Positions 37,155 to 45,129 of a DNA stretch of 54,891 nucleotides are shown in pieces. Positions within the stretch are counted from its first letter, which is position 1. Every line of letters starts with the position of its first letter. Under the pieces are notes generated by a model. The model worked only from the letters and a program-made list of their open reading frames with translations, made no database searches and was not told where the DNA came from. The position numbers were made by a program, and so were the translations under genes. The stretch lies in NCBI GenBank assembly GCA_022822565.1, contig JAJEAX010000417.1:1-54891 (forward strand), written 5' to 3'. The stretch comes from Candidatus Latescibacterota bacterium (GTDB lineage Bacteria; Latescibacterota; UBA2968).

Positions 37155-38519
37155 CTATCGGTTGGCTTCAATCCGGTCGAGAATCGCCTTTTTTACTGCA
37201 TCGATCTCAGGGGGCAACACAACGGGTTCATTGCGGTAATGCGGGCTTACCCCCCATTCCTGTAACTGATCCCGATGATATCCGAGCTTAAACTCACTAA
37301 ACTTCAACCCGTGAGCCGTTGAAATCACGATCACGCGATCGCTTTTCTGAATTACGCCCCTGTCAATCAACTTGAACAATGCCGCGAAAGCCACCCCGGT
37401 GTGCGGGCATGCAAACAAGCCCGTACGGTCGGCACGCGCAGCCGCATCGGCCAATTCTTCTTCGCTGGCTTGTTCTACGACACCGCCGAATATTTTGAGC
37501 GTTTGAATCGCTTTTTCCCGACTCACCGGATTGCCGATCTGGATCGCACTGGCCAATGTCGGCTGTGCCTGAATCGGTTCAAAACGATCAAAATTCTTTT
37601 CAAAACTTCGATAGAGCGGATTGGCCCTATCGGCCTGTGCAACCGCAATGCGCGGCAGTCGGTCAATTAGCCCAAGGGCCTCCATTTCGAGAAAGCCTTT
37701 GCCCAGCGCACTCACATTGCCCAGATTTCCGCCGGGAATCACAATCCAATCGGGCACTTCCCAATCAAATTGCTGTACCAACTCGATGCTGATTGTTTTT
37801 TGCCCCTCCACCCGCAGTGAATTCATCGAATTGGCCAAATAGATATTTTCCTCGTGGCAAATCTCCTGCACCAGCCTCATACATCCATCAAAGTCGGTCT
37901 CCAAACTCAGCACCAGTGCACCATTGGCCAGGGGCTGCAAAAGTTGTGCAGTCGAGATTTTGTCCCTCGGTAAAAAAACCACCGATTGTATGCCCGCCGC
38001 TGCACAATACGCAGCCAATGCCGCCGAGGTGTCCCCAGTAGATGCACACGCAACCGCCGGAATACGCTTCCCTTCAAATAGCATCTGTTTCACCATGGAT
38101 ACCAGCACCGTCATGCCCAAATCTTTGAACGATCCCGTATGGCTATTGCCGCATTGCTTAACCCACAAATCGTCAACGCCAATTTCTCGCCCCAAACGCT
38201 CGGCCCAAAACAGATTGCTACCCCCCTCGTACATCGACACCACATTGTCTTCGTGAACCACGGGGCAGACCAGTTCTTTTTTCCCCCATACAGAACTGCC
38301 ATAAGGCCATTTCGTCGTCATATAACGCTTATCAAATAACCCGCGCCAATAACTGCCCGGCTTGCGTTTGAGCATCTCCATATCGTGCGCCACTTCGAGT
38401 AACCCTCCGCACTTTGGACATGCGTAAATCACATCCGTCAACGCATATCGCCCTTCGCATCCGTGAAAACACCGAAACCAAGCATTGTAAGTTGTATCGT
38501 TCATATTTTCGTTACGCAT
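37155..38519 (-). CDS. thrC: threonine synthase (long form with N-terminal Cys-rich segment)
   Basis: PLP-fold motifs ([12 protein letters not shown]). N-terminal FRCFHGCEG...CPKCGG. Start is the ATG at 38519 or 38504, neither with a clear SD. Confidence 0.9.
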
Positions 38520-38577
38520 TATGACAAAACTCAGCACAAATGCACTAAACTCGCCAACACTTCCACATATCACAGAA

Positions 38578-38838
38578 TTATTTCAATGGAGCTATTTTGC
38601 CGGGATCCTCTAAATCTTGCGCTCGTTCCCAAGCTGCCCGCAATTCCGCTTGATGCAAAGACGCCCAGCGAAGCACAAGTCGTTGCTCTCTTGTTGGCAA
38701 GAAGCCTTTTAGTACTTCAAGAGTTTCAATTCCAATAACTGCCTGGTTATCACCATACAGTGCGTGAAAATGCGCTGGCGGATGTTCTCTAAAATGAATT
38801 TGGATGATAATTCCGTAAAAGCGACAAAGTTCAGGCAT
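38578..38838 (-). CDS. DUF4160 domain protein
   Basis: 86 aa. [29 protein letters not shown] matches the DUF4160 signature. Overlaps the upstream gene by 8 nt. Confidence 0.75.
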
Positions 38839-39115
38839 TCTCAATCGCAACTTGTGCGCCCGACATTACTTCGTCCACAGACTTGCCCGTGAGTTCCATA
38901 TATAGCGCGTCAGAACAAATATCCAGATCATCGCCCCAGGCTATTGCACCCCCATCTGCTACGCGCACAATCTCGAAGAATGCGCGATCATTCCAGGCAG
39001 CAAACACGCCACGCCCAGCCATATCTGATAAGTCTATCTCTCCCTCGATTCCGTCCGAATAGCGCACCCAGATGCAATAACCATCACGCGGTTCCACTGC
39101 AATTGGTCGTATCAT
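38831..39115 (-). CDS. DUF2442 domain protein
   Basis: 94 aa. ...YCIWVRYSDGIEGEIDLS...ICSDALY pattern typical of DUF2442. Confidence 0.7.
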   Translation of the reverse strand: MIRPIAVEPRDGYCIWVRYSDGIEGEIDLSDMAGRGVFAAWNDRAFFEIVRVADGGAIAWGDDLDICSDALYMELTGKSVDEVMSGAQVAIENA

Positions 39116-39141
39116 TGCACTTCTCCTTTTGCTACCGTTTC

Positions 39142-39189
39142 AATTATCCTAACAAACAAAAGTGTAGCAACAACGCCATTTTGTCAACC
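39142..39189 (-). promoter_or_regulatory. conserved promoter module, copy 1 (upstream of DUF2442/DUF4160)
   Basis: Minus strand GGTTGACAAAATGGCGTTGTTGCTACACTTTTGTTTGTTAGGATAATT. TTGCTA, 17 nt, ATAATT. 42 of 49 aligned positions match copy 2. Confidence 0.5.
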
Positions 39190-39297
39190 GTATTTCAAAA
39201 TATCCCGACATTTTGGACTTGCTGCATACGTCATTTTGACATATAACTTAAGAATGGAAAGAGTCATATTTGATTCACGTCGAGGAGATCAATAAAC

Positions 39298-39705
39298 ATG
39301 ACCACTAAAGAACAATATGGAACTTCTGAACTGGAGAGGGACTTTGGACAGTTGACATTCGGAAATGCCCTATCCAGCTATCGAACAGGAGAAGAAAAAA
39401 GCCAGAGAGCGTTTGCTGGTTTTTTGGGCATTTCACCTCAAAGCCTTTGTGACATAGAAAAAGAAAGAAGGATTCCAAGCCCCAGTAGAGCAGCCAAAAT
39501 TGCCAGACAACTCGGCGAGCCAGAAAGCTTCTGGGTACAGCTTGCGTTACAGGATATGCTTCGAAAAGAAAATTTGAACCTCGTTGTTTCCATACTCGCG
39601 GAAGACTATCTGGCTCAAGAGGCGAAACAAGGTAAACGTGCGGATTTCGAAAAAGTCTTAAAGGCCGTGCCACATGTCGAACCAGCAGAACATGATCGGA
39701 TCTAA
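39298..39705 (+). CDS. XRE-family HTH transcriptional regulator (orphan)
   Basis: 135 aa. ...SQRAFAGFLGISPQSLCDIEKERRIPS... HTH_3 pattern. Confidence 0.8.
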   Translation: MTTKEQYGTSELERDFGQLTFGNALSSYRTGEEKSQRAFAGFLGISPQSLCDIEKERRIPSPSRAAKIARQLGEPESFWVQLALQDMLRKENLNLVVSILAEDYLAQEAKQGKRADFEKVLKAVPHVEPAEHDRI

Positions 39706-39862
39706 ATTCAGGCCATCTCCCAGGTTGCCCACAAAGATAGATCTATTTCATGACGTCTCTTTGCCAAATTATCCAATTGTGCCATCGCTGTCCAGATTGT
39801 ATTTCGCATTATACTGCTCATCGCCTTGACTTAACCCGAACTGTGCTACAAACTGCAAAAAA

Positions 39863-40258
39863 TCATTTCCTGAAAGAACTCTTGCTGATATACCCATATT
39901 TGCCACCGATTTTCACCCAAGCTAAGCCCTCCGAAAAAATGACGCTGATAAAGTCAAATTGCGGATTGATAACATATTTACCTGACTTGTTGATATACCC
40001 CCATCTATCACCGATTGCCACATGAGCCAATCCCTCTGAAAACAGCCAAGCATCGTCAAATTGTGGTTTGATAACATATTCTCCTGATTTGTCGATATAA
40101 CCCCACCTACTATCAATTTTCGCAGAAGCCAAACCTTCTGAAAAAGGTCGGGCATCCTCAAATTGTGGTTTGATAGCATATTGTATTTCGGCCTCAATCG
40201 AAACAGAGCGAGAAAATAACACGGTTGAGAATATCAGGATGTATAACAGCCTGGTCAT
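39863..40258 (-). CDS. secreted WG-repeat (KWG-type) protein
   Basis: 131 aa with a signal peptide and three FSEGLA...WGYI(D/N)KSG.YVI.PQF repeats. Confidence 0.75.
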   Translation of the reverse strand: MTRLLYILIFSTVLFSRSVSIEAEIQYAIKPQFEDARPFSEGLASAKIDSRWGYIDKSGEYVIKPQFDDAWLFSEGLAHVAIGDRWGYINKSGKYVINPQFDFISVIFSEGLAWVKIGGKYGYISKSSFRK

Positions 40259-40320
40259 TGCCGCACCTTCCTTTCTTGTAATTTATCCTGAAGTTTTTCC
40301 TACGTCAAAACTGTATGGCA

Positions 40321-41271
40321 TTAGTCGTTTTTGTTCTTCATGTAGTCACACCAACCGCACAAGGGAGAACTATCCAGTTCTTCCGGCAAAATGTTATCAC
40401 CGCATCTGATACATATATGCGTTGCTTCATGATCGCAGTAGGCGCACTTCCTTTCAGAGATCACATACGATTCTTTTGAGCACTCCGGGCATGAAACATA
40501 GGGAAACTCATTACCATCTGTAAACGATAGATACAGTTCCCAACTCAACTCATCCGAGATCGCTCTGGGAATCAATTCTTCGGCTGTTTCCCCATTCCCA
40601 CAAGCACGACACTGCAATGAGACTTGGTCTCGTGGGGAGTTCGTTGGTGTCGCCATCAGCAGGTCAGCTCCACACTCTACACAGTGCAGATTCTCCACTG
40701 CTCCAAAGAGAGTTGGCGAGTTCCAATCAATTGATTCTATCGTTTCATCACATGCTATACGCTCCACTTGGTAAACCTCGGCGATCTGTAGCATTTTGTC
40801 CCAAGTCCTCTCACCAAGGAGGTCCCTAGGTTCTTCGTGCAATTCTCTATCAATGAAGTCCCTGAGTAAAACAAAGGCATTGGCTATTACGCTCTTAAGT
40901 GCCTCTGCATTGATGGTTGAGTAGTAGTGTTCGACATTATTGCGGGCCTTCCGAATATTCTCGAATTTTTTCCAGTTAGTCGTGATTCCAATGGCCGAGA
41001 AACGCTCTTGAATCTGATGGCTATCTACAGTCTTTCGTCCAGTACCTACAGCGACAACCTTCCCCGCGGGATTCTTCTGGAGTTGTACTTGTGCCTTGAT
41101 CAGAACCTCATTTGATTCTGGAGGAGATTTGCGTCTTAGGGCTTCCTTGTAGAAAAGCAACAGTCCGGCATAGACATTTCGGACAGAAGCAAGCAGCCTG
41201 CGACGGCTTCCATCTTCATAGTCCTCAATCCCAACCTGAATTGCCTCAATGGCGTTTGTCAGCAAATTCAT
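40321..41271 (-). CDS. hypothetical protein: HEPN-like helical N-domain + three C-terminal zinc ribbons
   Basis: 316 aa from the ATG at 41271, 6 nt after GGAGG. RKARNNVEH fits the HEPN Rx4-6H motif. CxxC pairs: CVEC...CRAC, CPEC...CAYC, CIRC...CGWC. Confidence 0.55.
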   Translation of the reverse strand: MNLLTNAIEAIQVGIEDYEDGSRRRLLASVRNVYAGLLLFYKEALRRKSPPESNEVLIKAQVQLQKNPAGKVVAVGTGRKTVDSHQIQERFSAIGITTNWKKFENIRKARNNVEHYYSTINAEALKSVIANAFVLLRDFIDRELHEEPRDLLGERTWDKMLQIAEVYQVERIACDETIESIDWNSPTLFGAVENLHCVECGADLLMATPTNSPRDQVSLQCRACGNGETAEELIPRAISDELSWELYLSFTDGNEFPYVSCPECSKESYVISERKCAYCDHEATHICIRCGDNILPEELDSSPLCGWCDYMKNKND

Positions 41272-41376
41272 AGTGGCCTCCATATAACTCGTCAATGTAC
41301 CATGAATTACTGCCTGGGAGAACGAAGGTGAAATGCACAACGGATTTTTTTATCGAATTGCTACGAGATTTTGTTT

Positions 41377-41679
41377 TCATTTCACCAACCCCTTCTGGCG
41401 TCCGCGGCGTAGGGTGCGTTTTTGATCATTGGAACTTGAAGGATAGGCGGTGATGACGCGTCCATCTCGTATGACTACCTTGCGATTTGCAAGCCGGCTC
41501 AACGTTTGTATCTCTCGCTTTCGGATCTCGATTTCGCGGTTGGCATCCCGGTTACGCATAAAATAGGTCTCACCGTCAATCTTTGTTCCACACGCGAGAA
41601 TGATCGGAATATCTGACTTGCGAATGCCGCGCTGTTGCATGCGCGTTTTGGCAGGCCGTGTGTAGATTATGTCGGTCAT
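41377..41679 (-). CDS. DUF4258-like small protein (putative toxin component)
   Basis: 100 aa. ...TRPAKTRMQQRGI...RVITAY resembles the DUF4258 core. ATGA overlap with the upstream gene and an AAGGAGG SD. Confidence 0.5.
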   Translation of the reverse strand: MTDIIYTRPAKTRMQQRGIRKSDIPIILACGTKIDGETYFMRNRDANREIEIRKREIQTLSRLANRKVVIRDGRVITAYPSSSNDQKRTLRRGRQKGLVK

Positions 41680-42755
41680 TTGTCGCCTCCTTCTTTTTCA
41701 GTTTCGGAATTGGTCTTTTGAGAATCCACTTTCTGAGATTCCATTATTTTTTGCTTCAAATCAGGATGCTTAGATTCCATATCCTCTATATTTTGCTTCA
41801 AATCCTGCTTTGGATCCGTAGAAACTATCCCCGCGAGACTGTCCCCGTCCAAAATATCATAGATACCCGGCAATTTGTCTTCGAGCCACTTTGCACGTTT
41901 CTCACCTGCGTCTTCCGCCATCAGTTCTTCGGGAATCTCGGAAAGCCGCACATGGCCCGTTTCAAGAGTCCTTCTGGCTTTTGAGGAACCGTTAGAAATA
42001 TAGTCGAGCTCTTCTCGGCAGATGTCATAGTAGGGAAACTTGTACTGCGATCTGAAATTGAGATCCCCTTTGTCCACATCAACGACATCGGGAATGGCAA
42101 GTTCACCTGCTAAGTTTCGCAAATAGAGAACGAATGGGTTTATTTTTATCGATTCAAAGGCGGGTTCAAAGGCGTAGCCGTCAGTATCTAACAGGTCTTC
42201 ACCAAAGATATCGGCACTGGCGATAGAAGCCTTATCCCCATCGGATCCCCACTCCGCGAGTACCGCGGCCTGGCTGAATTCTGCTGACCAGGTACCGCCC
42301 GTGGCCCTTATTTCGTCCAATCGCACCAGCATGTCTTCCACCTCTTTCAATTTCTCACGTCGTTGGGCAAGACTGCCCTCAGCCAGAAGCACAAAAAAGA
42401 GCGGTGCCATGTTGATGATCTCGGTGGCATTGACACCATATCGGCGTTTGATGAGATCGTAGGCGAGTCGGGTCTTTGGCGCGATCTGTGCGCCGATCTG
42501 GACGCGGTCAGGGTTGTCGGCATGTGTCTTATCGGACTCGGGAAGCGGCAAATCGCCGGTGAGTACACCTGTATCGACGCTTAGTGCCCTGGCCAAGCCA
42601 TTCAGAGTATGCACTTGAGATTTTTGGGATCGTTGTGGCTCATTTTCCAAGCGTTGGATCGTGCGGTCAGAAATTTTAGATCGTTCAGCAAGTTTGAGGC
42701 GTGTCAGTCCTCTCTGTTCTCGTAGGGTGCGAAGGCGTTCAGGATCGATTTTCAT
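41676..42755 (-). CDS. XRE-family HTH protein with large uncharacterised C-terminal domain
   Basis: 359 aa from the ATG at 42755, 7 nt after AAGGAG. N-terminal LREQRGLTRLKLAERSKISDRTIQRLE HTH. About 290 further residues without a recognisable motif, then an acidic/lysine tail. Confidence 0.7.
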   Translation of the reverse strand: MKIDPERLRTLREQRGLTRLKLAERSKISDRTIQRLENEPQRSQKSQVHTLNGLARALSVDTGVLTGDLPLPESDKTHADNPDRVQIGAQIAPKTRLAYDLIKRRYGVNATEIINMAPLFFVLLAEGSLAQRREKLKEVEDMLVRLDEIRATGGTWSAEFSQAAVLAEWGSDGDKASIASADIFGEDLLDTDGYAFEPAFESIKINPFVLYLRNLAGELAIPDVVDVDKGDLNFRSQYKFPYYDICREELDYISNGSSKARRTLETGHVRLSEIPEELMAEDAGEKRAKWLEDKLPGIYDILDGDSLAGIVSTDPKQDLKQNIEDMESKHPDLKQKIMESQKVDSQKTNSETEKEGGDK

Positions 42756-42815
42756 GGTGAGACTCCTTGATGAAGTTTTCACGGCGAGACTGCTTAAATT
42801 TGAGATGCTGTAAAT

Positions 42816-42834
42816 GTAATAAAATTTTTATTAC
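42816..42834. promoter_or_regulatory. AT-rich perfect palindrome in the promoter region of the large XRE gene
   Basis: GTAATAAAA-T-TTTTATTAC. Confidence 0.4.
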
Positions 42835-42871
42835 GATACAATAGACAAATATTCTAAAATAATTATTTTAT

Positions 42872-42902
42872 AATAGGATATTTACGGCATAAATATCCTA
42901 TT
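42872..42902. promoter_or_regulatory. 13 bp perfect inverted repeat (candidate operator)
   Basis: AATAGGATATTTA-cggca-TAAATATCCTATT. Confidence 0.45.
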
Positions 42903-43054
42903 TAGGACATTTCGACCTCGTTCTGATCTTCTGCGGAGGTCGCCTGAAGTTGTCAGCGTCACCAAGAGAGACAAACGCGGACATTTTGATGTATTCCGCC
43001 CTCGGGCCTTATTCCTCGGATGTGGCGTGGGTTTGACCAATGCCGTCCGTTGCA

Positions 43055-43091
43055 CAAAAAAATACCGCCCTCCCGATATTGGGAGAACGGC
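43055..43091 (-). terminator. intrinsic terminator downstream of vapBC (repeat copy 1)
   Basis: Minus strand GCCGTTCTCCC-AATATC-GGGAGGGCGG-TATTTTTTTG. 37 nt identical to 44967-45003. Confidence 0.7.
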
Positions 43092-43236
43092 GTAGAATGG
43101 GCTGGTGCGCCAGCGTACAATCTTAACCGCATCAAATATCTCTTTTCTTGTCCATAATTGGTTACCTCGCACAGAGTTGTCCATGCACTCAATCAATGAT
43201 TACAAGATTTCTGAGTTTTTCCTATACTTGAGAATT

Positions 43237-43638
43237 TCACCAAATGGTTTCAACATCTGATTGCTGGATTCGATAATCTGTTGTGACAAGTGGCAGGCGG
43301 AGGTGCTGTGCTGTTGCCGCAATCATACGGTCTGGCATATCGGGTATTTGATCACGCGGAATATTTTCTAATTCTTCTGCAATCGCAAGATCAAAAGGGA
43401 CAACTTTGAATCCCGAATCGGATCGGTGCAATGTAGCTTTCAAATCAATTAAATTCTGTCTGGGCAACCGCTTTTTCTCAGTCAAGTATATAACCTCTAC
43501 AATTGTTACTGATGACACATAGACTGGGTGACCCGATGTAATGGCCTCTCGAATAGCTTGGCGAGCAACAGATGAAAGGTCTGACGATCGTGCTAAGAAC
43601 CAGATAAATGAATGCGTATCTACAACCAGAGACATCAC
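43237..43638 (-). CDS. vapC: PIN-domain toxin VapC
   Basis: 133 aa. MMSLVVDTHSFIW..., ...IVEVIY..., ...DRMIAATA..., ...VTTD acidic residues characteristic of PIN. Confidence 0.85.
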   Translation of the reverse strand: MMSLVVDTHSFIWFLARSSDLSSVARQAIREAITSGHPVYVSSVTIVEVIYLTEKKRLPRQNLIDLKATLHRSDSGFKVVPFDLAIAEELENIPRDQIPDMPDRMIAATAQHLRLPLVTTDYRIQQSDVETIW

Positions 43639-43649
43639 GCCTAATCCTT

Positions 43650-43931
43650 TTAATCAAATTTATGCCACATGTCTTTTCGGACTTCGGCTATGTCTCGGGC
43701 GGTTATTGGATTCATCTGATCCCACAGGCCTTCGGGATTAAAGAGCTTGCCTTGATCAAATTCTGACGCATCTGGTGCGTTTTCCATAGGAACGAGTTGA
43801 AAAGCCGAACCATCTTCCTGCGTAATAACCACTTTCTCTCCATTGGCCGCTTCTTTGACCAATGCCGCAAGACAGTTTTCCGCCTCTGTAAGATCAATTT
43901 TGTACATGTTTTTCGCCTCTTTGGTGTTCAT
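43650..43931 (-). CDS. vapB: antitoxin (Phd/YefM-like) of VapC
   Basis: 93 aa, or 85 aa from the ATG at 43907 which has the better SD. ...LAALVKEAANGEKVVITQEDG... pattern. Confidence 0.7.
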   Translation of the reverse strand: MNTKEAKNMYKIDLTEAENCLAALVKEAANGEKVVITQEDGSAFQLVPMENAPDASEFDQGKLFNPEGLWDQMNPITARDIAEVRKDMWHKFD

Positions 43932-43971
43932 TATTGCTTCTAACGGCTGAGTGCAATTCCCATGTAATTTT

Positions 43972-44020
43972 AATTATACCCAAAAACAAAAAGTGTCGCA
44001 ACAACGCGATATTGTCAACC
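43972..44020 (-). promoter_or_regulatory. conserved promoter module, copy 2 (upstream of vapBC)
   Basis: Minus strand GGTTGACAATATCGCGTTGTTGCGACACTTTTTGTTTTTGGGTATAATT. TTGCGA, 17 nt, TATAAT. Confidence 0.55.
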
Positions 44021-44033
44021 ACATTGCTTAAAG

Positions 44034-44753
44034 TTACACCGCTATACCAACTTGTAGCGCGGCATCATAGCCCCCTGTCGCGGCATTGGCAATCACATTT
44101 GTCAGTTGGTATTGGAATGCATTGGCTGGCGAACGAAAAAGGCCATCGTCGGTATTTTTCATGGGATTCTGTCCCCGAGCAGAATATTCCGTTGTATTGA
44201 ACACAGCCGTATTGATTTCTTCGGGAAAAGCCAATTGCGATGTTGCCGCCAATCCATTATTCAAAAAAACTTGAAAATGAATATGCGTTGCTCTGCCCGG
44301 ATACCATCCCGGATAAACCGTTGCAAATGTGGCATTTCCATTCTCGTCGCTCAACTGAATACCTCTGCAAAAAGTCTGTCCACTTGCATTGACACCACCA
44401 GGCTGATTGGAAAATCCGGAATAAACCCCACGCGTATCACAATGCCACACATCGACGCGAGCATTGACAATTGGAGTACACCCAGCATTTGCATTCACCA
44501 CTTTCAAAGTCAAATTAAGCGGCACGCCCGATGTGTCTTCCGCAATATCCCGTCGAAAATATTCGGGATTATTGCTTAAATTTAATGGAAAAGGCCCTGC
44601 TGTTTCTCGCGGTATTAAGATGCAACTTCCCTCACCCAGGAGGGGATCTTCACCACCGGTGACCGAATCCTTTTTGCAAGCCTTCATAATCAGGCCTCCA
44701 ACGCCCATCAAACCAACGCTTCCCACGCGCTTCAAAACATTCCTTCGATTCAT
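44034..44753 (-). CDS. Tat-exported intradiol ring-cleavage dioxygenase-like protein
   Basis: 239 aa. MNRRNVLKRVG twin-arginine signal. YPGWYPGRATHIHFQV motif typical of the intradiol dioxygenase fold. Confidence 0.7.
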   Translation of the reverse strand: MNRRNVLKRVGSVGLMGVGGLIMKACKKDSVTGGEDPLLGEGSCILIPRETAGPFPLNLSNNPEYFRRDIAEDTSGVPLNLTLKVVNANAGCTPIVNARVDVWHCDTRGVYSGFSNQPGGVNASGQTFCRGIQLSDENGNATFATVYPGWYPGRATHIHFQVFLNNGLAATSQLAFPEEINTAVFNTTEYSARGQNPMKNTDDGLFRSPANAFQYQLTNVIANAATGGYDAALQVGIAV

Positions 44754-44966
44754 TCTTCTTCTCCAAAATAAACGCGGTTACACAACTCTAAAATTCGATG
44801 CTCAAATCAGAAGACACACTTTATCGCCTGTCTTAGTCATTATTTGAGACACACGACAGCCCACTTCGTTCCCATGAAAATTGTAATAAACTGTTAAACT
44901 CGTTACAGTGCGTTCCTCCTTTTTCATTTAGCGGAAGAATGGGTCTTCTGTAGAGGGATCGACTGG

Positions 44967-45003
44967 CAAAAAAATACCGCCCTCCCGATATTGGGAGAAC
45001 GGC
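44967..45003 (-). terminator. intrinsic terminator downstream of the Bat operon (repeat copy 2)
   Basis: Identical 37 nt to 43055-43091, with a further ~18 nt of partial identity on the high-coordinate side. Confidence 0.7.
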
Positions 45004-45129
45004 ATTGAATGAGCTATGGCGATGGACAGGCGCTTGTGTTCTTCACATATGTAGAAAACCTGGAAGAATGGCACTCATAACTCTATATCCTTTACCAAAC
45101 GCGTTCTACGTCAAAAAATTATCGCCTTC

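What the first reader, a model, noticed from the sequence alone, without database searches (positions are those of the whole stretch)
40321..41271. HEPN-like domain fused to three CxxC...CxxC zinc ribbons
The N-terminal ~150 residues are predicted helical and contain NIRKARNNVEHYY, which is R-x4-H with a polar residue after the Arg, as in HEPN RNases. The C-terminal ~130 residues carry CVEC-x25-CRAC, CPEC-x12-CAYC and CIRC-x14-CGWC. Zinc ribbons could provide nucleic-acid or partner recognition for a HEPN nuclease. The ATG at 41271 lies 6 nt after GGAGG, which argues against the longer ORF-track start.
Basis: inference. Interest (0 to 1): 0.6.

Follow-up and report, generated by a model that had tools for sequence, protein, structure and literature searches.

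The report
HEPN RNase with three zinc ribbons
This gene encodes a stand-alone protein that joins a predicted RNA-cutting (HEPN) head to three zinc-binding ribbons; it belongs to an already catalogued, untested candidate anti-phage family (PADLOC PDC-S64) and is a distant relative of the validated defence protein HEC-08, so it is real but fairly ordinary.

Summary
Window 40321-41271 (-) is an intact 316-aa gene. It has an R-x4-H motif (R110-N-N-V-E-H115) and six CxxC pairs forming three zinc ribbons. Small corrections: the CxxC spacers are x20, x11 and x14, and the Shine-Dalgarno spacer is 5 nt.

Homologues are almost all 310-320 aa, which supports the ATG at 41271. R110 and H115 are each kept in 243 of 244 relatives, and the cysteines are near-invariant.

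The protein matches the PADLOC model PDC-S64 at E 9e-47. This is a single-gene "phage defence candidate" that has not been tested. A profile-profile comparison links the family over its full length to HEC-08 (probability 97.5%). HEC-08 is a HEPN(DUF3644)+zinc-finger protein shown to defend E. coli, and its defence needs the motif histidine.

The N-terminal domain alone gives only moderate matches to DUF3644 (probability 72-78%, E about 1e-5). Foldseek gives HEPN structures as its best-probability hits, but none is significant. The AlphaFold topology fits the canonical HEPN layout.

No neighbouring gene is conserved across 45 loci. The family is patchy (7 of 168 genomes in the phylum), occurs on 15 plasmids, and here lies in a low-GC toxin-antitoxin islet.

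Verdict: a new member of a known kind, and probably a trigger-activated RNase defence protein. This scan has already reported HEC-08/PDC-S64-type proteins in at least eight other genomes.

The parts
40321..41271 (-). CDS of the 316-aa HEPN-triple-zinc-ribbon protein, with the stop codon at 40321-40323. Member of PADLOC PDC-S64.
   Evidence: Translation. PADLOC PDLC05058 E 8.9e-47, covering residues 2-283 of the protein and positions 9-285 of the 305-position profile. 111 homologues of about 316 aa.
41277..41281 (-). Shine-Dalgarno GGAGG, 5 nt upstream of the ATG at 41271.
   Evidence: Sequence read directly. The start is supported by the N-termini of homologues.
40732..41271 (-). N-terminal HEPN-like domain, residues 1 to about 180. 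Helices are H1 3-20, H2 23-48, beta-hairpin insert 59-81 plus short helix 84-94, H3 100-115, H4 122-142, and extra helices to 181.
   Evidence: AF2 domain model pLDDT 94.4, pTM 0.90. hhalign to DUF3644 probability 72-78%. Best-probability Foldseek hits are HEPN proteins.
40927..40944 (-). Predicted catalytic motif R110-N-N-V-E-H115 (Rx4H), at the end of helix 3.
   Evidence: R is kept in 243/244, N in 239/244, E in 242/244 and H in 243/244. It aligns with the RNKMVH motif of the HEC-08 family and the R(D/N/H)xxxH motif of DUF3644.
40600..40683 (-). Zinc ribbon 1: C197-x2-C200 ... C221-x2-C224.
   Evidence: The four Cys are kept in 243-244 of 244 members. Weak NCBIfam ECs_2282_CxxC match, E 1.7e-4.
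40435..40491 (-). Zinc ribbon 2: C261-P-E-C264 ... C276-x2-C279.
   Evidence: Cys kept in 241-242 of 244. Profile match to the eL37 zinc ribbon, E 9e-4.
40348..40413 (-). Zinc ribbon 3: C287-x2-C290 ... C305-x2-C308.
   Evidence: Cys kept in 237-240 of 244. The last ligand is Cys in 202 and His in 32 members.

Best explanation
The gene encodes a single-protein immune effector of the PDC-S64 family. Its N-terminal HEPN domain is predicted to be a metal-independent ribonuclease whose active site uses R110 and H115. By analogy with other HEPN enzymes, two copies of the motif would meet across a homodimer. The three C-terminal zinc ribbons are inferred to form the regulatory or recognition module. 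They would hold the RNase inactive or off-target until an infection-derived cue (a phage protein or nucleic acid) is sensed. RNA cleavage (host tRNA, rRNA or mRNA, or invader transcripts) would then stop phage or other mobile-element propagation. Shown here: the architecture, conservation of the motif and zinc ligands, PDC-S64 family membership, homology to HEC-08, stand-alone gene organisation, and a patchy, mobile distribution. Inferred: RNase activity, dimerisation, the trigger, the target and the defence phenotype.
For: - PADLOC PDC-S64 match at E 8.9e-47. PDC systems are candidates found embedded in BREX, DISARM or type I RM systems and are untested.
- Full-length hhalign to a 34-sequence HEC-08 family alignment: probability 97.5%, E 6.9e-12, 289 columns, motifs in register.
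- BLASTP to a HEC-08 member: E 1e-5 over the N-terminal 130 aa.
- HEC-08 is a DUF3644-HEPN plus zinc-finger protein that defends E. coli. Mutating the motif histidine (H128) abolishes defence (bioRxiv 10.1101/2024.01.29.577857).
- hhalign to DUF3644: probability 78% for the full alignment and 72% for the N-domain.
- The AF2 topology fits the canonical HEPN description.
- The motif and Cys ligands are near-invariant in 244 members, and the gene is under purifying selection.
- No conserved neighbour was found in 45 genomic loci.
- Neighbours include RM methyltransferases, MADS mad2, PifA, integrases and other PDCs, each in only one or two of 150 neighbours.
- The family is on 15 plasmids, 12 of them conjugative or mobilizable.
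- It is present in 7 of 168 genomes of the phylum and in 2 of the 20 other genomes of the genus.
- Here it lies in a lower-GC islet (0.43-0.47 against 0.50-0.56 in the flanks) together with VapBC, DUF4160/DUF2442 and XRE genes.
Against: - No member of PDC-S64 has been tested, and full-text search found no paper that names it.
- The HEPN assignment by fold is not statistically secure. Foldseek E-values are about 1.
- The N-domain alone matches the HEC-08 profile only weakly (probability 23%, E 9e-4). Much of the 97.5% full-length score therefore comes from the Cys-rich half.
- The PADLOC HEC-08 model itself scores only E 0.076.
- Known defence systems are not consistently adjacent. No neighbour family recurs in more than 2 of 150 neighbours.
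- In this window the immediate neighbours are toxin-antitoxin-like and regulatory genes, not classical defence systems.
- Nothing here shows RNase activity, a dimer, or what the zinc ribbons bind.
Confidence: 0.65

Rival explanations
1. The molecular machine is the same (a HEPN RNase with zinc ribbons), but its target is conjugative plasmids or other mobile elements rather than phages. It would work like the Ishtar proteins, which clear plasmid RP4.
For: Ishtar1 and Ishtar2 are single proteins with an N-terminal DUF4145 or DUF3644 HEPN domain. They cause plasmid loss with little cost to viability (bioRxiv 10.64898/2026.07.06.735840). The N-domain here matches DUF3644. The family itself travels on conjugative and mobilizable plasmids, which fits inter-element competition.
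Against: The Ishtar C-terminal domains are beta-sheet/alpha domains, not zinc ribbons. The closest validated relative by full-length profile is HEC-08, which was scored against phages. No anti-plasmid data exist for this family.
Confidence: 0.13
2. The protein is the toxin or effector of a multi-gene module with the upstream XRE (368 aa) and DUF4258-like genes, and perhaps the downstream WG-repeat gene. The XRE protein would act as repressor or antitoxin.
For: All four genes are on the minus strand with short gaps (105 and 62 nt). No terminator-like or strong promoter-like site was found between them on that strand. The same XRE / DUF4258-like / HEPN-ZnR / WG order occurs in a Latescibacterota relative, with 77%, 88%, 80% and 71% identity.
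Against: The synteny is limited to that one very close relative. In another same-genus genome the gene follows batE directly, with only a 23-aa remnant of the DUF4258-like gene. A same-order homologue has none of these genes within 1.5 kb. Across 45 loci no neighbour family is conserved. XRE and DUF4258-like overlap by 4 nt and look like a pair of their own.
Confidence: 0.08
3. The protein is a housekeeping or stress-related RNA-processing or ribosome-associated zinc-ribbon protein, with no role in conflict with mobile elements.
For: The zinc ribbons resemble ribosomal eL37-, S27- and L32-type ribbons at weak E-values. Some sources auto-name homologues 'RNA-binding Zn-ribbon protein involved in translation' or 'ribosomal protein L37E'. 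Many loci have no recognisable defence neighbour.
Against: The distribution is patchy (7 of 168 genomes; 2 of the 20 other genomes in the genus), relatives include several broken copies, and the family is carried on plasmids. None of this suits a housekeeping gene. The ribosomal matches cover only about 30 residues of a generic C4 ribbon. The family was picked up because members are embedded in BREX, DISARM or RM systems.
Confidence: 0.07
4. The N-terminal domain is not a HEPN nuclease. It would be a different helical fold, or a catalytically inert HEPN used for binding, and the conserved R/H motif would serve another role.
For: Foldseek gives no match at E<=0.001 in the PDB, and some top hits are unrelated helical proteins such as MCL-1 and nuclear receptors. 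There is no Pfam hit to any HEPN family at E<=1.
Against: The hits with the highest Foldseek probability and TM-score are all HEPN proteins: Csm6' 8pe3 (probability 0.75), HEPN-MNT toxins 8xeh and 8xdj, and 2q00 and 1wty with target-normalised TM 0.5-0.6. The motif position and the helix 2-3 insert match the HEPN definition. Profile-profile matches to DUF3644 and HEC-08 keep the motifs in register.
Confidence: 0.07

Closest known systems
PADLOC phage defence candidate PDC-S64 (model PDLC05058; Payne et al., bioRxiv 10.1101/2024.01.29.577857)
   Same: Direct HMM membership at E 8.9e-47 over about 90% of both protein and profile. It is a single-gene system of about 305-340 aa.
   Different: Nothing structural differs. 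This is a new member from an uncultured Latescibacterota-like lineage. The family is a computational candidate chosen by guilt-by-embedding and has not been tested.
HEC-08 (Hma-embedded candidate 08), a validated single-gene anti-phage protein
   Same: It has an N-terminal DUF3644-type HEPN domain with Rx4-6H, followed by an array of C-terminal zinc ribbons. Full-length profile-profile probability is 97.5%. The motif histidine is needed for defence in HEC-08.
   Different: It is a separate family. The HEC-08 HMM scores only E 0.076, and pairwise identity is about 26% over the N-domain only. HEC-08 relatives are about 350 aa with eight conserved CxxC pairs (four zinc sites), against six pairs (three sites) here. 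HEC-08 lacks the beta-hairpin segment in the same form.
DUF3644 (PF12358) / EC042_2821-like HEPN family of Anantharaman et al. 2013
   Same: The helix-1 and helix-2 signatures and the R-x4-H motif align (probability 72-78%, E 2-4e-5). The 2013 survey already lists fusions of this family to zinc ribbons and its occurrence in R-M operons.
   Different: There is no Pfam hit at E<=1. DUF3644 proteins from the same phylum carry a different, non-Cys C-terminal domain and often sit beside type I RM genes.
PD-T7-4 and DS-38, other validated HEPN + zinc-finger one-protein defences
   Same: They have the same overall plan, a HEPN nuclease plus a zinc-finger module in one protein, and they defend against phages (bioRxiv 10.1101/2025.01.08.631726).
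   Different: No PADLOC PD-T7-4 model matched at E<=1. The cited paper notes that zinc-finger modules differ between such proteins and probably act differently. DS-38 was not compared directly here.
HEPN-MNT type II/VII toxin-antitoxin toxins (for example Shewanella SO_3166)
   Same: They are among the best structural matches to the N-domain (8xeh, 8xdj: target-normalised TM about 0.5, rmsd 4.5-6.7 A). They use an Rx4H RNase motif.
   Different: They are about 130-aa proteins paired with an MNT nucleotidyltransferase antitoxin. Here there is no MNT, no conserved partner, and 130 extra residues of zinc ribbons.

Membership tests
HEPN superfamily | Conserved Rx4-6H motif with a polar residue after Arg | tested here: met
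   R110-N-N-V-E-H115. R is kept in 243/244, N in 239/244 and H in 243/244.
HEPN superfamily | Four-helix up-down core with a variable insert between helices 2 and 3, and the motif at the end of helix 3 / start of the loop to helix 4 (Anantharaman 2013) | tested here: met
   AF2 DSSP gives H1 3-20, H2 23-48, insert 49-99 (beta-hairpin plus short helix), H3 100-115 ending in the motif, loop 116-121 and H4 122-142. pLDDT 94. Definition quoted. This is a prediction, not an experimental structure.
HEPN superfamily | Significant structural similarity to solved HEPN domains | tested here: inconclusive
   Foldseek against the PDB gave no hit at E<=0.001. The best-probability hits are HEPN proteins (Csm6' probability 0.75; 8xeh, 8xdj, 2q00 and 1wty with target-normalised TM 0.5-0.6), but E is 0.8-2.8.
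HEPN superfamily | Profile-level homology to an established HEPN family | tested here: met
   hhalign to DUF3644 gave probability 77.9% / E 1.8e-5 and 71.8% / E 3.5e-5, with motifs in register. The strength is moderate. A bridging protein (L025) hits the query at E 1e-8 and DUF3644 at E 2.3e-4.
HEPN superfamily | Homodimer with a composite active site, and RNase activity | not testable with these tools
   No multimer prediction or biochemistry was available.
PADLOC PDC-S64 | Match to the family HMM over most of its length, as a stand-alone gene | tested here: met
   PDLC05058 at E 8.9e-47, 158 bits, protein residues 2-283 against profile positions 9-285 of 305. The second model PDLC05059 scores E 8.7e-11. 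No conserved neighbour.
HEC-08 | Match to the HEC-08 HMM (PDLC04162) | tested here: not met
   E 0.076, 10 bits, partial. True HEC-08 members in the same phylum score E 1e-88 to 1e-98.
HEC-08 | Shared ancestry and architecture (HEPN plus a zinc-ribbon array) | tested here: met
   hhalign of family against family gave probability 97.5%, E 6.9e-12, 289 columns. The N-domain alone gives only probability 23%, E 9e-4.
   No DUF4145, Abi_2, AbiU2, AbiV or other HEPN Pfam family at E<=1.
PD-T7-4 | Match to the PADLOC PD-T7-4 models | tested here: not met
   Not among the PADLOC hits at E<=1.
HEPN-MNT toxin-antitoxin | Adjacent MNT nucleotidyltransferase antitoxin gene | tested here: not met
   The neighbours here are a DUF4258-like gene and a WG-repeat gene. 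No recurrent neighbour in 45 loci.

The most novel reading that the evidence does not exclude
The triple zinc-ribbon array would be a distinct sensor that gives PDC-S64 its own trigger and target, different from HEC-08, PD-T7-4 and DS-38. One possibility is docking on the ribosome or on a structured RNA through eL37- or S27-like ribbons, so that the HEPN head cuts rRNA, tRNA or translating mRNA only when a phage or plasmid factor exposes the site. Another is an Ishtar-like anti-plasmid role. Either would make this a mechanistically new branch of HEPN immunity in little-studied phyla (Latescibacterota, Acidobacteriota, Gemmatimonadota).
Probability: 0.12. Interest if true: 0.55.

Novelty: new member of a known kind. 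Interest (0 to 1): 0.3.

Why it matters
This record adds a well-supported member from an uncultured soil or sediment lineage to a candidate defence family that nobody has tested. It ties that family (PDC-S64) to the validated HEC-08 by full-length profile homology. It also gives precise residues to mutate: R110, H115 and the three Cys4 sites. If PDC-S64 is shown to defend, the roughly 1,660 cluster representatives found here would gain a function. They span Acidobacteriota, Gemmatimonadota, Latescibacterota, Planctomycetota, Proteobacteria and plasmids. Comparing three-ribbon and four-ribbon versions could then show how zinc-ribbon modules control HEPN RNases. As a discovery it is incremental: the architecture was noted in 2013 and validated in relatives in 2022-2025.

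Tried and rejected
- Pfam and NCBIfam scans gave no domain call for the N-terminal half. They returned only weak, sub-threshold zinc-ribbon hits.
- A profile search of PDB sequences returned only eL37/L32-type ribbons, with a best E of 9e-4.
- Foldseek with the whole-protein model was uninformative. I re-modelled the N-domain alone. HEPN proteins rose to the best-probability hits but stayed non-significant.
- The first related-loci run with the diverse alignment failed because it had no conserved 7-10-column stretch. A closer alignment worked.
- I looked for a conserved partner gene by all-against-all BLAST of 391 neighbour ORFs from 45 loci. None was found. That rejected a two-gene toxin-antitoxin reading and a fixed link to the XRE and DUF4258 genes.
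- Family tallies of 150 flanking proteins showed no recurrent family, with a maximum of 2 of 150. I could not demonstrate statistical defence-island enrichment.
- No homologue was found in 50,697 phage records. One metagenomic siphovirus protein has the same N-domain fold in BFVD.
- A literature search for 'PDC-S64' found nothing.
- An earlier scan note says that HEC-08 equals DS-38. I did not verify this and do not rely on it.

Full report
**1. The observation**

The minus-strand ORF 40321-41271 translates to 316 residues without a stop. The mechanical ORF list extends it to a TTG at 41340, giving 339 aa. The ATG at 41271 is the better start for two reasons. It is preceded by GGAGG (41281-41277) with a 5-nt spacer. 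Also, 111 homologues from a 5.8-billion-protein collection are nearly all 310-320 aa and begin M-[D/N/S]-L-L.

The string NIRKARNNVEHYY starts at residue 105, which gives R110-x4-H115 with Asn at 111. The six CxxC pairs start at residues 197, 221, 261, 276, 287 and 305.

**2. Conservation**

I first aligned 41 sequences reaching down to 33% identity. R110, E114, H115 and eleven Cys were invariant, as were N6, G14, D17, R25, R31, G36 and K42 in the first two helices.

I then aligned 244 family members. These came from the homologue search and from an exhaustive hmmsearch of 1.84 billion cluster representatives. That search found 1,663 representatives at E<=1e-3 and 511 at E<=1e-30. The results were as follows:
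- R110 is kept in 243, N111 in 239, E114 in 242 and H115 in 243.
- The Cys ligands are kept in 237-244.
- The last ligand (C308) is Cys in 202 and His in 32, which still binds zinc.

dN/dS against two relatives is 0.29 and 0.14. The features are real and selected.

**3. Family assignment**

Pfam and NCBIfam give nothing for the N-terminal half. They return only sub-threshold zinc-ribbon hits. PADLOC-DB gives a strong hit to PDC-S64 (PDLC05058, E 8.9e-47, about 90% coverage of both protein and profile). It also gives a marginal hit to HEC-08 (E 0.076) that spans the motif and the first ribbon.

PDC systems are 145 'phage defence candidates' derived from genes embedded in BREX, DISARM or type I RM loci. 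They were added to PADLOC untested (bioRxiv 10.1101/2024.01.29.577857).

The same preprint describes HEC-08. [quoted passage not shown] It protects E. coli from phages, and mutation of the histidine of its Rx4-6H motif (H128) abolishes defence.

**4. Testing the link to HEC-08 and DUF3644**

I retrieved DUF3644 and HEC-08 members from genomes of the window's own phylum. I then expanded HEC-08 to a 34-sequence family alignment. The comparisons gave these results:
- **PDC-S64 against HEC-08, full length:** hhalign probability 97.5%, E 6.9e-12 over 289 columns. The match runs from helix 1 through RNxxxH to the last ribbon.
- **Pairwise BLASTP to a HEC-08 member:** E 1e-5 and 26% identity over the first 130 residues, with the motifs aligned.
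- **PDC-S64 against 13 DUF3644 proteins:** probability 77.9% and E 1.8e-5 for the full alignment, and 71.8% and E 3.5e-5 for the N-domain alone. The motifs are in register in both.
- **A bridging protein:** a 258-aa HEPN + two-ribbon protein (L025) hits the query at E 1e-8 in the N-domain and 1e-4 in the ribbons. It hits Pfam DUF3644 at E 2.3e-4.

One caveat matters. The N-domain alone against the HEC-08 profile gives only probability 23% and E 9e-4. Much of the full-length score is therefore carried by the Cys-rich half.

HEC-08 relatives have eight conserved CxxC pairs, against six here. PDC-S64 is thus a shorter sister family of HEC-08, not a member of it.

**5. Structure**

AlphaFold2 with the family alignment gives a confident model (pLDDT 92.0, pTM 0.80). 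A model of residues 1-182 alone gives pLDDT 94.4 and pTM 0.90.

The predicted secondary structure is H1 3-20, H2 23-48, a beta-hairpin at 59-81, a short helix at 84-94, H3 100-115, a loop, and H4 122-142, followed by further helices. The motif RNNVEH occupies 110-115, so it sits at the end of H3 and runs into the H3-H4 loop. An insert lies between H2 and H3. This is the arrangement Anantharaman et al. (2013, PMC3710099) give as characteristic of HEPN domains.

Foldseek against the PDB found no match at E<=0.001. The hits with the highest probability and TM-score are all HEPN proteins:
- Csm6' 8pe3 (probability 0.75)
- HEPN-MNT toxins 8xeh and 8xdj (rmsd 4.5-6.7 A)
- 2q00 and 1wty (target-normalised TM 0.6)

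I rate this structural evidence as supportive but inconclusive. In BFVD one metagenomic siphovirus protein shares the fold (E 7e-4, TM 0.66).

**6. Genomic context**

Across 45 loci from GTDB species genomes, all-against-all BLAST of 391 flanking ORFs found no conserved neighbour. Among the 150 nearest flanking proteins no Pfam or PADLOC family occurs more than twice. The families seen include type I, II and III methyltransferases, a restriction enzyme, MADS mad2, PifA, other PDCs and integrases.

On a Methylomonas plasmid the gene directly follows a DUF1156/DUF499 pair. It is followed there by an integrase, a RelE/ParE pair and a multiubiquitin/ThiF pair. On a Ralstonia plasmid it lies near a restriction endonuclease. 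tblastn finds the family on 15 plasmids, of which 7 are conjugative and 5 mobilizable, and in no phage record.

Hosts span Latescibacterota (closest, 76-80% identity), Acidobacteriota, Gemmatimonadota, Binatia, Planctomycetota, Verrucomicrobiota, Chloroflexota, Firmicutes, and Alpha- and Gammaproteobacteria. Within the window's phylum the family is in 7 of 168 genomes. Within the genus it is in 2 of the 20 other genomes, and one of those copies is split into two frames. Several other copies carry in-frame stops. This is the pattern of a mobile, dispensable, stand-alone gene.

**7. The local setting**

The gene lies in a 6.5-kb stretch of lower GC (0.43-0.47 against 0.50-0.56) between thrC and a bat operon. 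The stretch also holds DUF2442/DUF4160, an orphan XRE, a WG-repeat protein, a 368-aa XRE protein overlapping a DUF4258-like gene by 4 nt, and VapBC.

No terminator-like site separates the DUF4258-like gene from the HEPN gene on the minus strand, so co-transcription is possible. The XRE/DUF4258/HEPN/WG order recurs only in one very close relative. A second genus member has the HEPN gene right after batE, with only a 23-aa remnant of the DUF4258-like gene. A same-order homologue lacks all three within 1.5 kb. I therefore treat the XRE/DUF4258 pair as a separate module.

**8. Mechanism**

The best-supported reading is a one-protein immune effector. In this reading a HEPN RNase head is controlled by a triple zinc-ribbon tail.

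The following are shown here:
- the architecture
- near-invariance of the motif and zinc ligands
- PDC-S64 family membership
- homology to a validated, His-dependent defence protein
- stand-alone organisation
- a mobile, patchy distribution

The following are inferred:
- dimerisation into a composite R/H site, as in other HEPN RNases
- the RNA target
- the activating cue
- whether the outcome is abortive infection

A related possibility is an anti-plasmid role. The Ishtar proteins have a DUF3644 or DUF4145 HEPN domain plus a different C-terminal domain (bioRxiv 10.64898/2026.07.06.735840).

Other HEPN + zinc-finger one-protein defences (PD-T7-4, DS-38) are validated, and the cited paper notes that their zinc-finger modules differ (bioRxiv 10.1101/2025.01.08.631726). 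The PADLOC PD-T7-4 models do not match this protein.

**9. Novelty and score**

The architecture was already listed in 2013: the EC042_2821/DUF3644 family is recorded as fused to zinc ribbons and occurring in R-M operons. The family is catalogued as PDC-S64, and a sister family is experimentally validated. Earlier notes of this scan report HEC-08/PDC-S64-type proteins in at least eight other genomes, mostly in E. coli, often as P2-like prophage cargo. I reached the same reading independently before consulting those notes.

This is a new member of a known kind. It is interesting mainly as an untested family with clear mutational targets and a non-model phylogenetic range. Interest is 0.3.

Noticed in passing
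L039 8001-8944 (= G086, L075/L078), Latescibacterota chromosome OZ242320.1: The 76%-identical homologue is split into two frames (204 aa plus 112-125 aa). It sits directly after batE, without the XRE and DUF4258 genes. A 23-aa remnant of the DUF4258-like gene lies upstream. It is either a decaying copy or an assembly frameshift.
   Followed up: partly
L044, L047 and L064 (first 546 nt of the match in each): Three further homologues carry in-frame stops or frameshifts within the HEPN domain. In L047 the stop comes right after the EH of the motif. This suggests frequent inactivation.
   Followed up: no
L025 1423-2199 (-), genome G003 of the same phylum: A 258-aa shorter variant has the same HEPN head (RRRNRIEH) and only two zinc ribbons. 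It bridges PDC-S64 (BLASTP E 1e-8) and Pfam DUF3644 (E 2.3e-4).
   Followed up: partly
L009, L013, L016 and L021 (DUF3644 loci in the same phylum): DUF3644 HEPN proteins without zinc ribbons lie next to ORFs that look like type I RM specificity or methylase subunits. These are embedded-in-RM contexts within the window's own phylum.
   Followed up: no
L079 (Methylomonas sp. DH-1 plasmid NZ_CP014361.1, 220420-233367): The homologue lies immediately downstream of DUF1156 and DUF499 genes (MADS-like). It is followed by an integrase, a DUF1778-RelE/ParE pair, an XRE regulator and a multiubiquitin/ThiF pair. Together these form a compact plasmid defence island.
   Followed up: no
window 41377-42782 (-): A 368-aa XRE-HTH protein overlaps a 100-aa DUF4258-like gene by 4 nt. 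The DUF4258 match is sub-threshold (E 7.7e-5, 23.4 bits against a cut-off of 25). The pair is conserved at 77% and 88% identity in one close relative, and looks like a separate toxin-antitoxin-like module with an unusually large HTH partner.
   Followed up: partly
window 38500-45100: The islet between thrC and the bat operon has GC 0.43-0.47 against 0.50-0.56 in the flanks. In relatives the same slot after batE holds different cargo: VapBC + XRE + DUF4258 + HEPN-ZnR + WG in L027, and HEPN-ZnR only in L039. It looks like an insertion hot spot.
   Followed up: partly
BFVD entry A0A8S5V3T9 (Siphoviridae sp. cttKr9, 302 aa): This is the only significant structural match to the N-domain in any library (Foldseek E 7e-4, TM 0.66, 18% identity). 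It is a phage or prophage-borne uncharacterised protein with the same fold.
   Followed up: no
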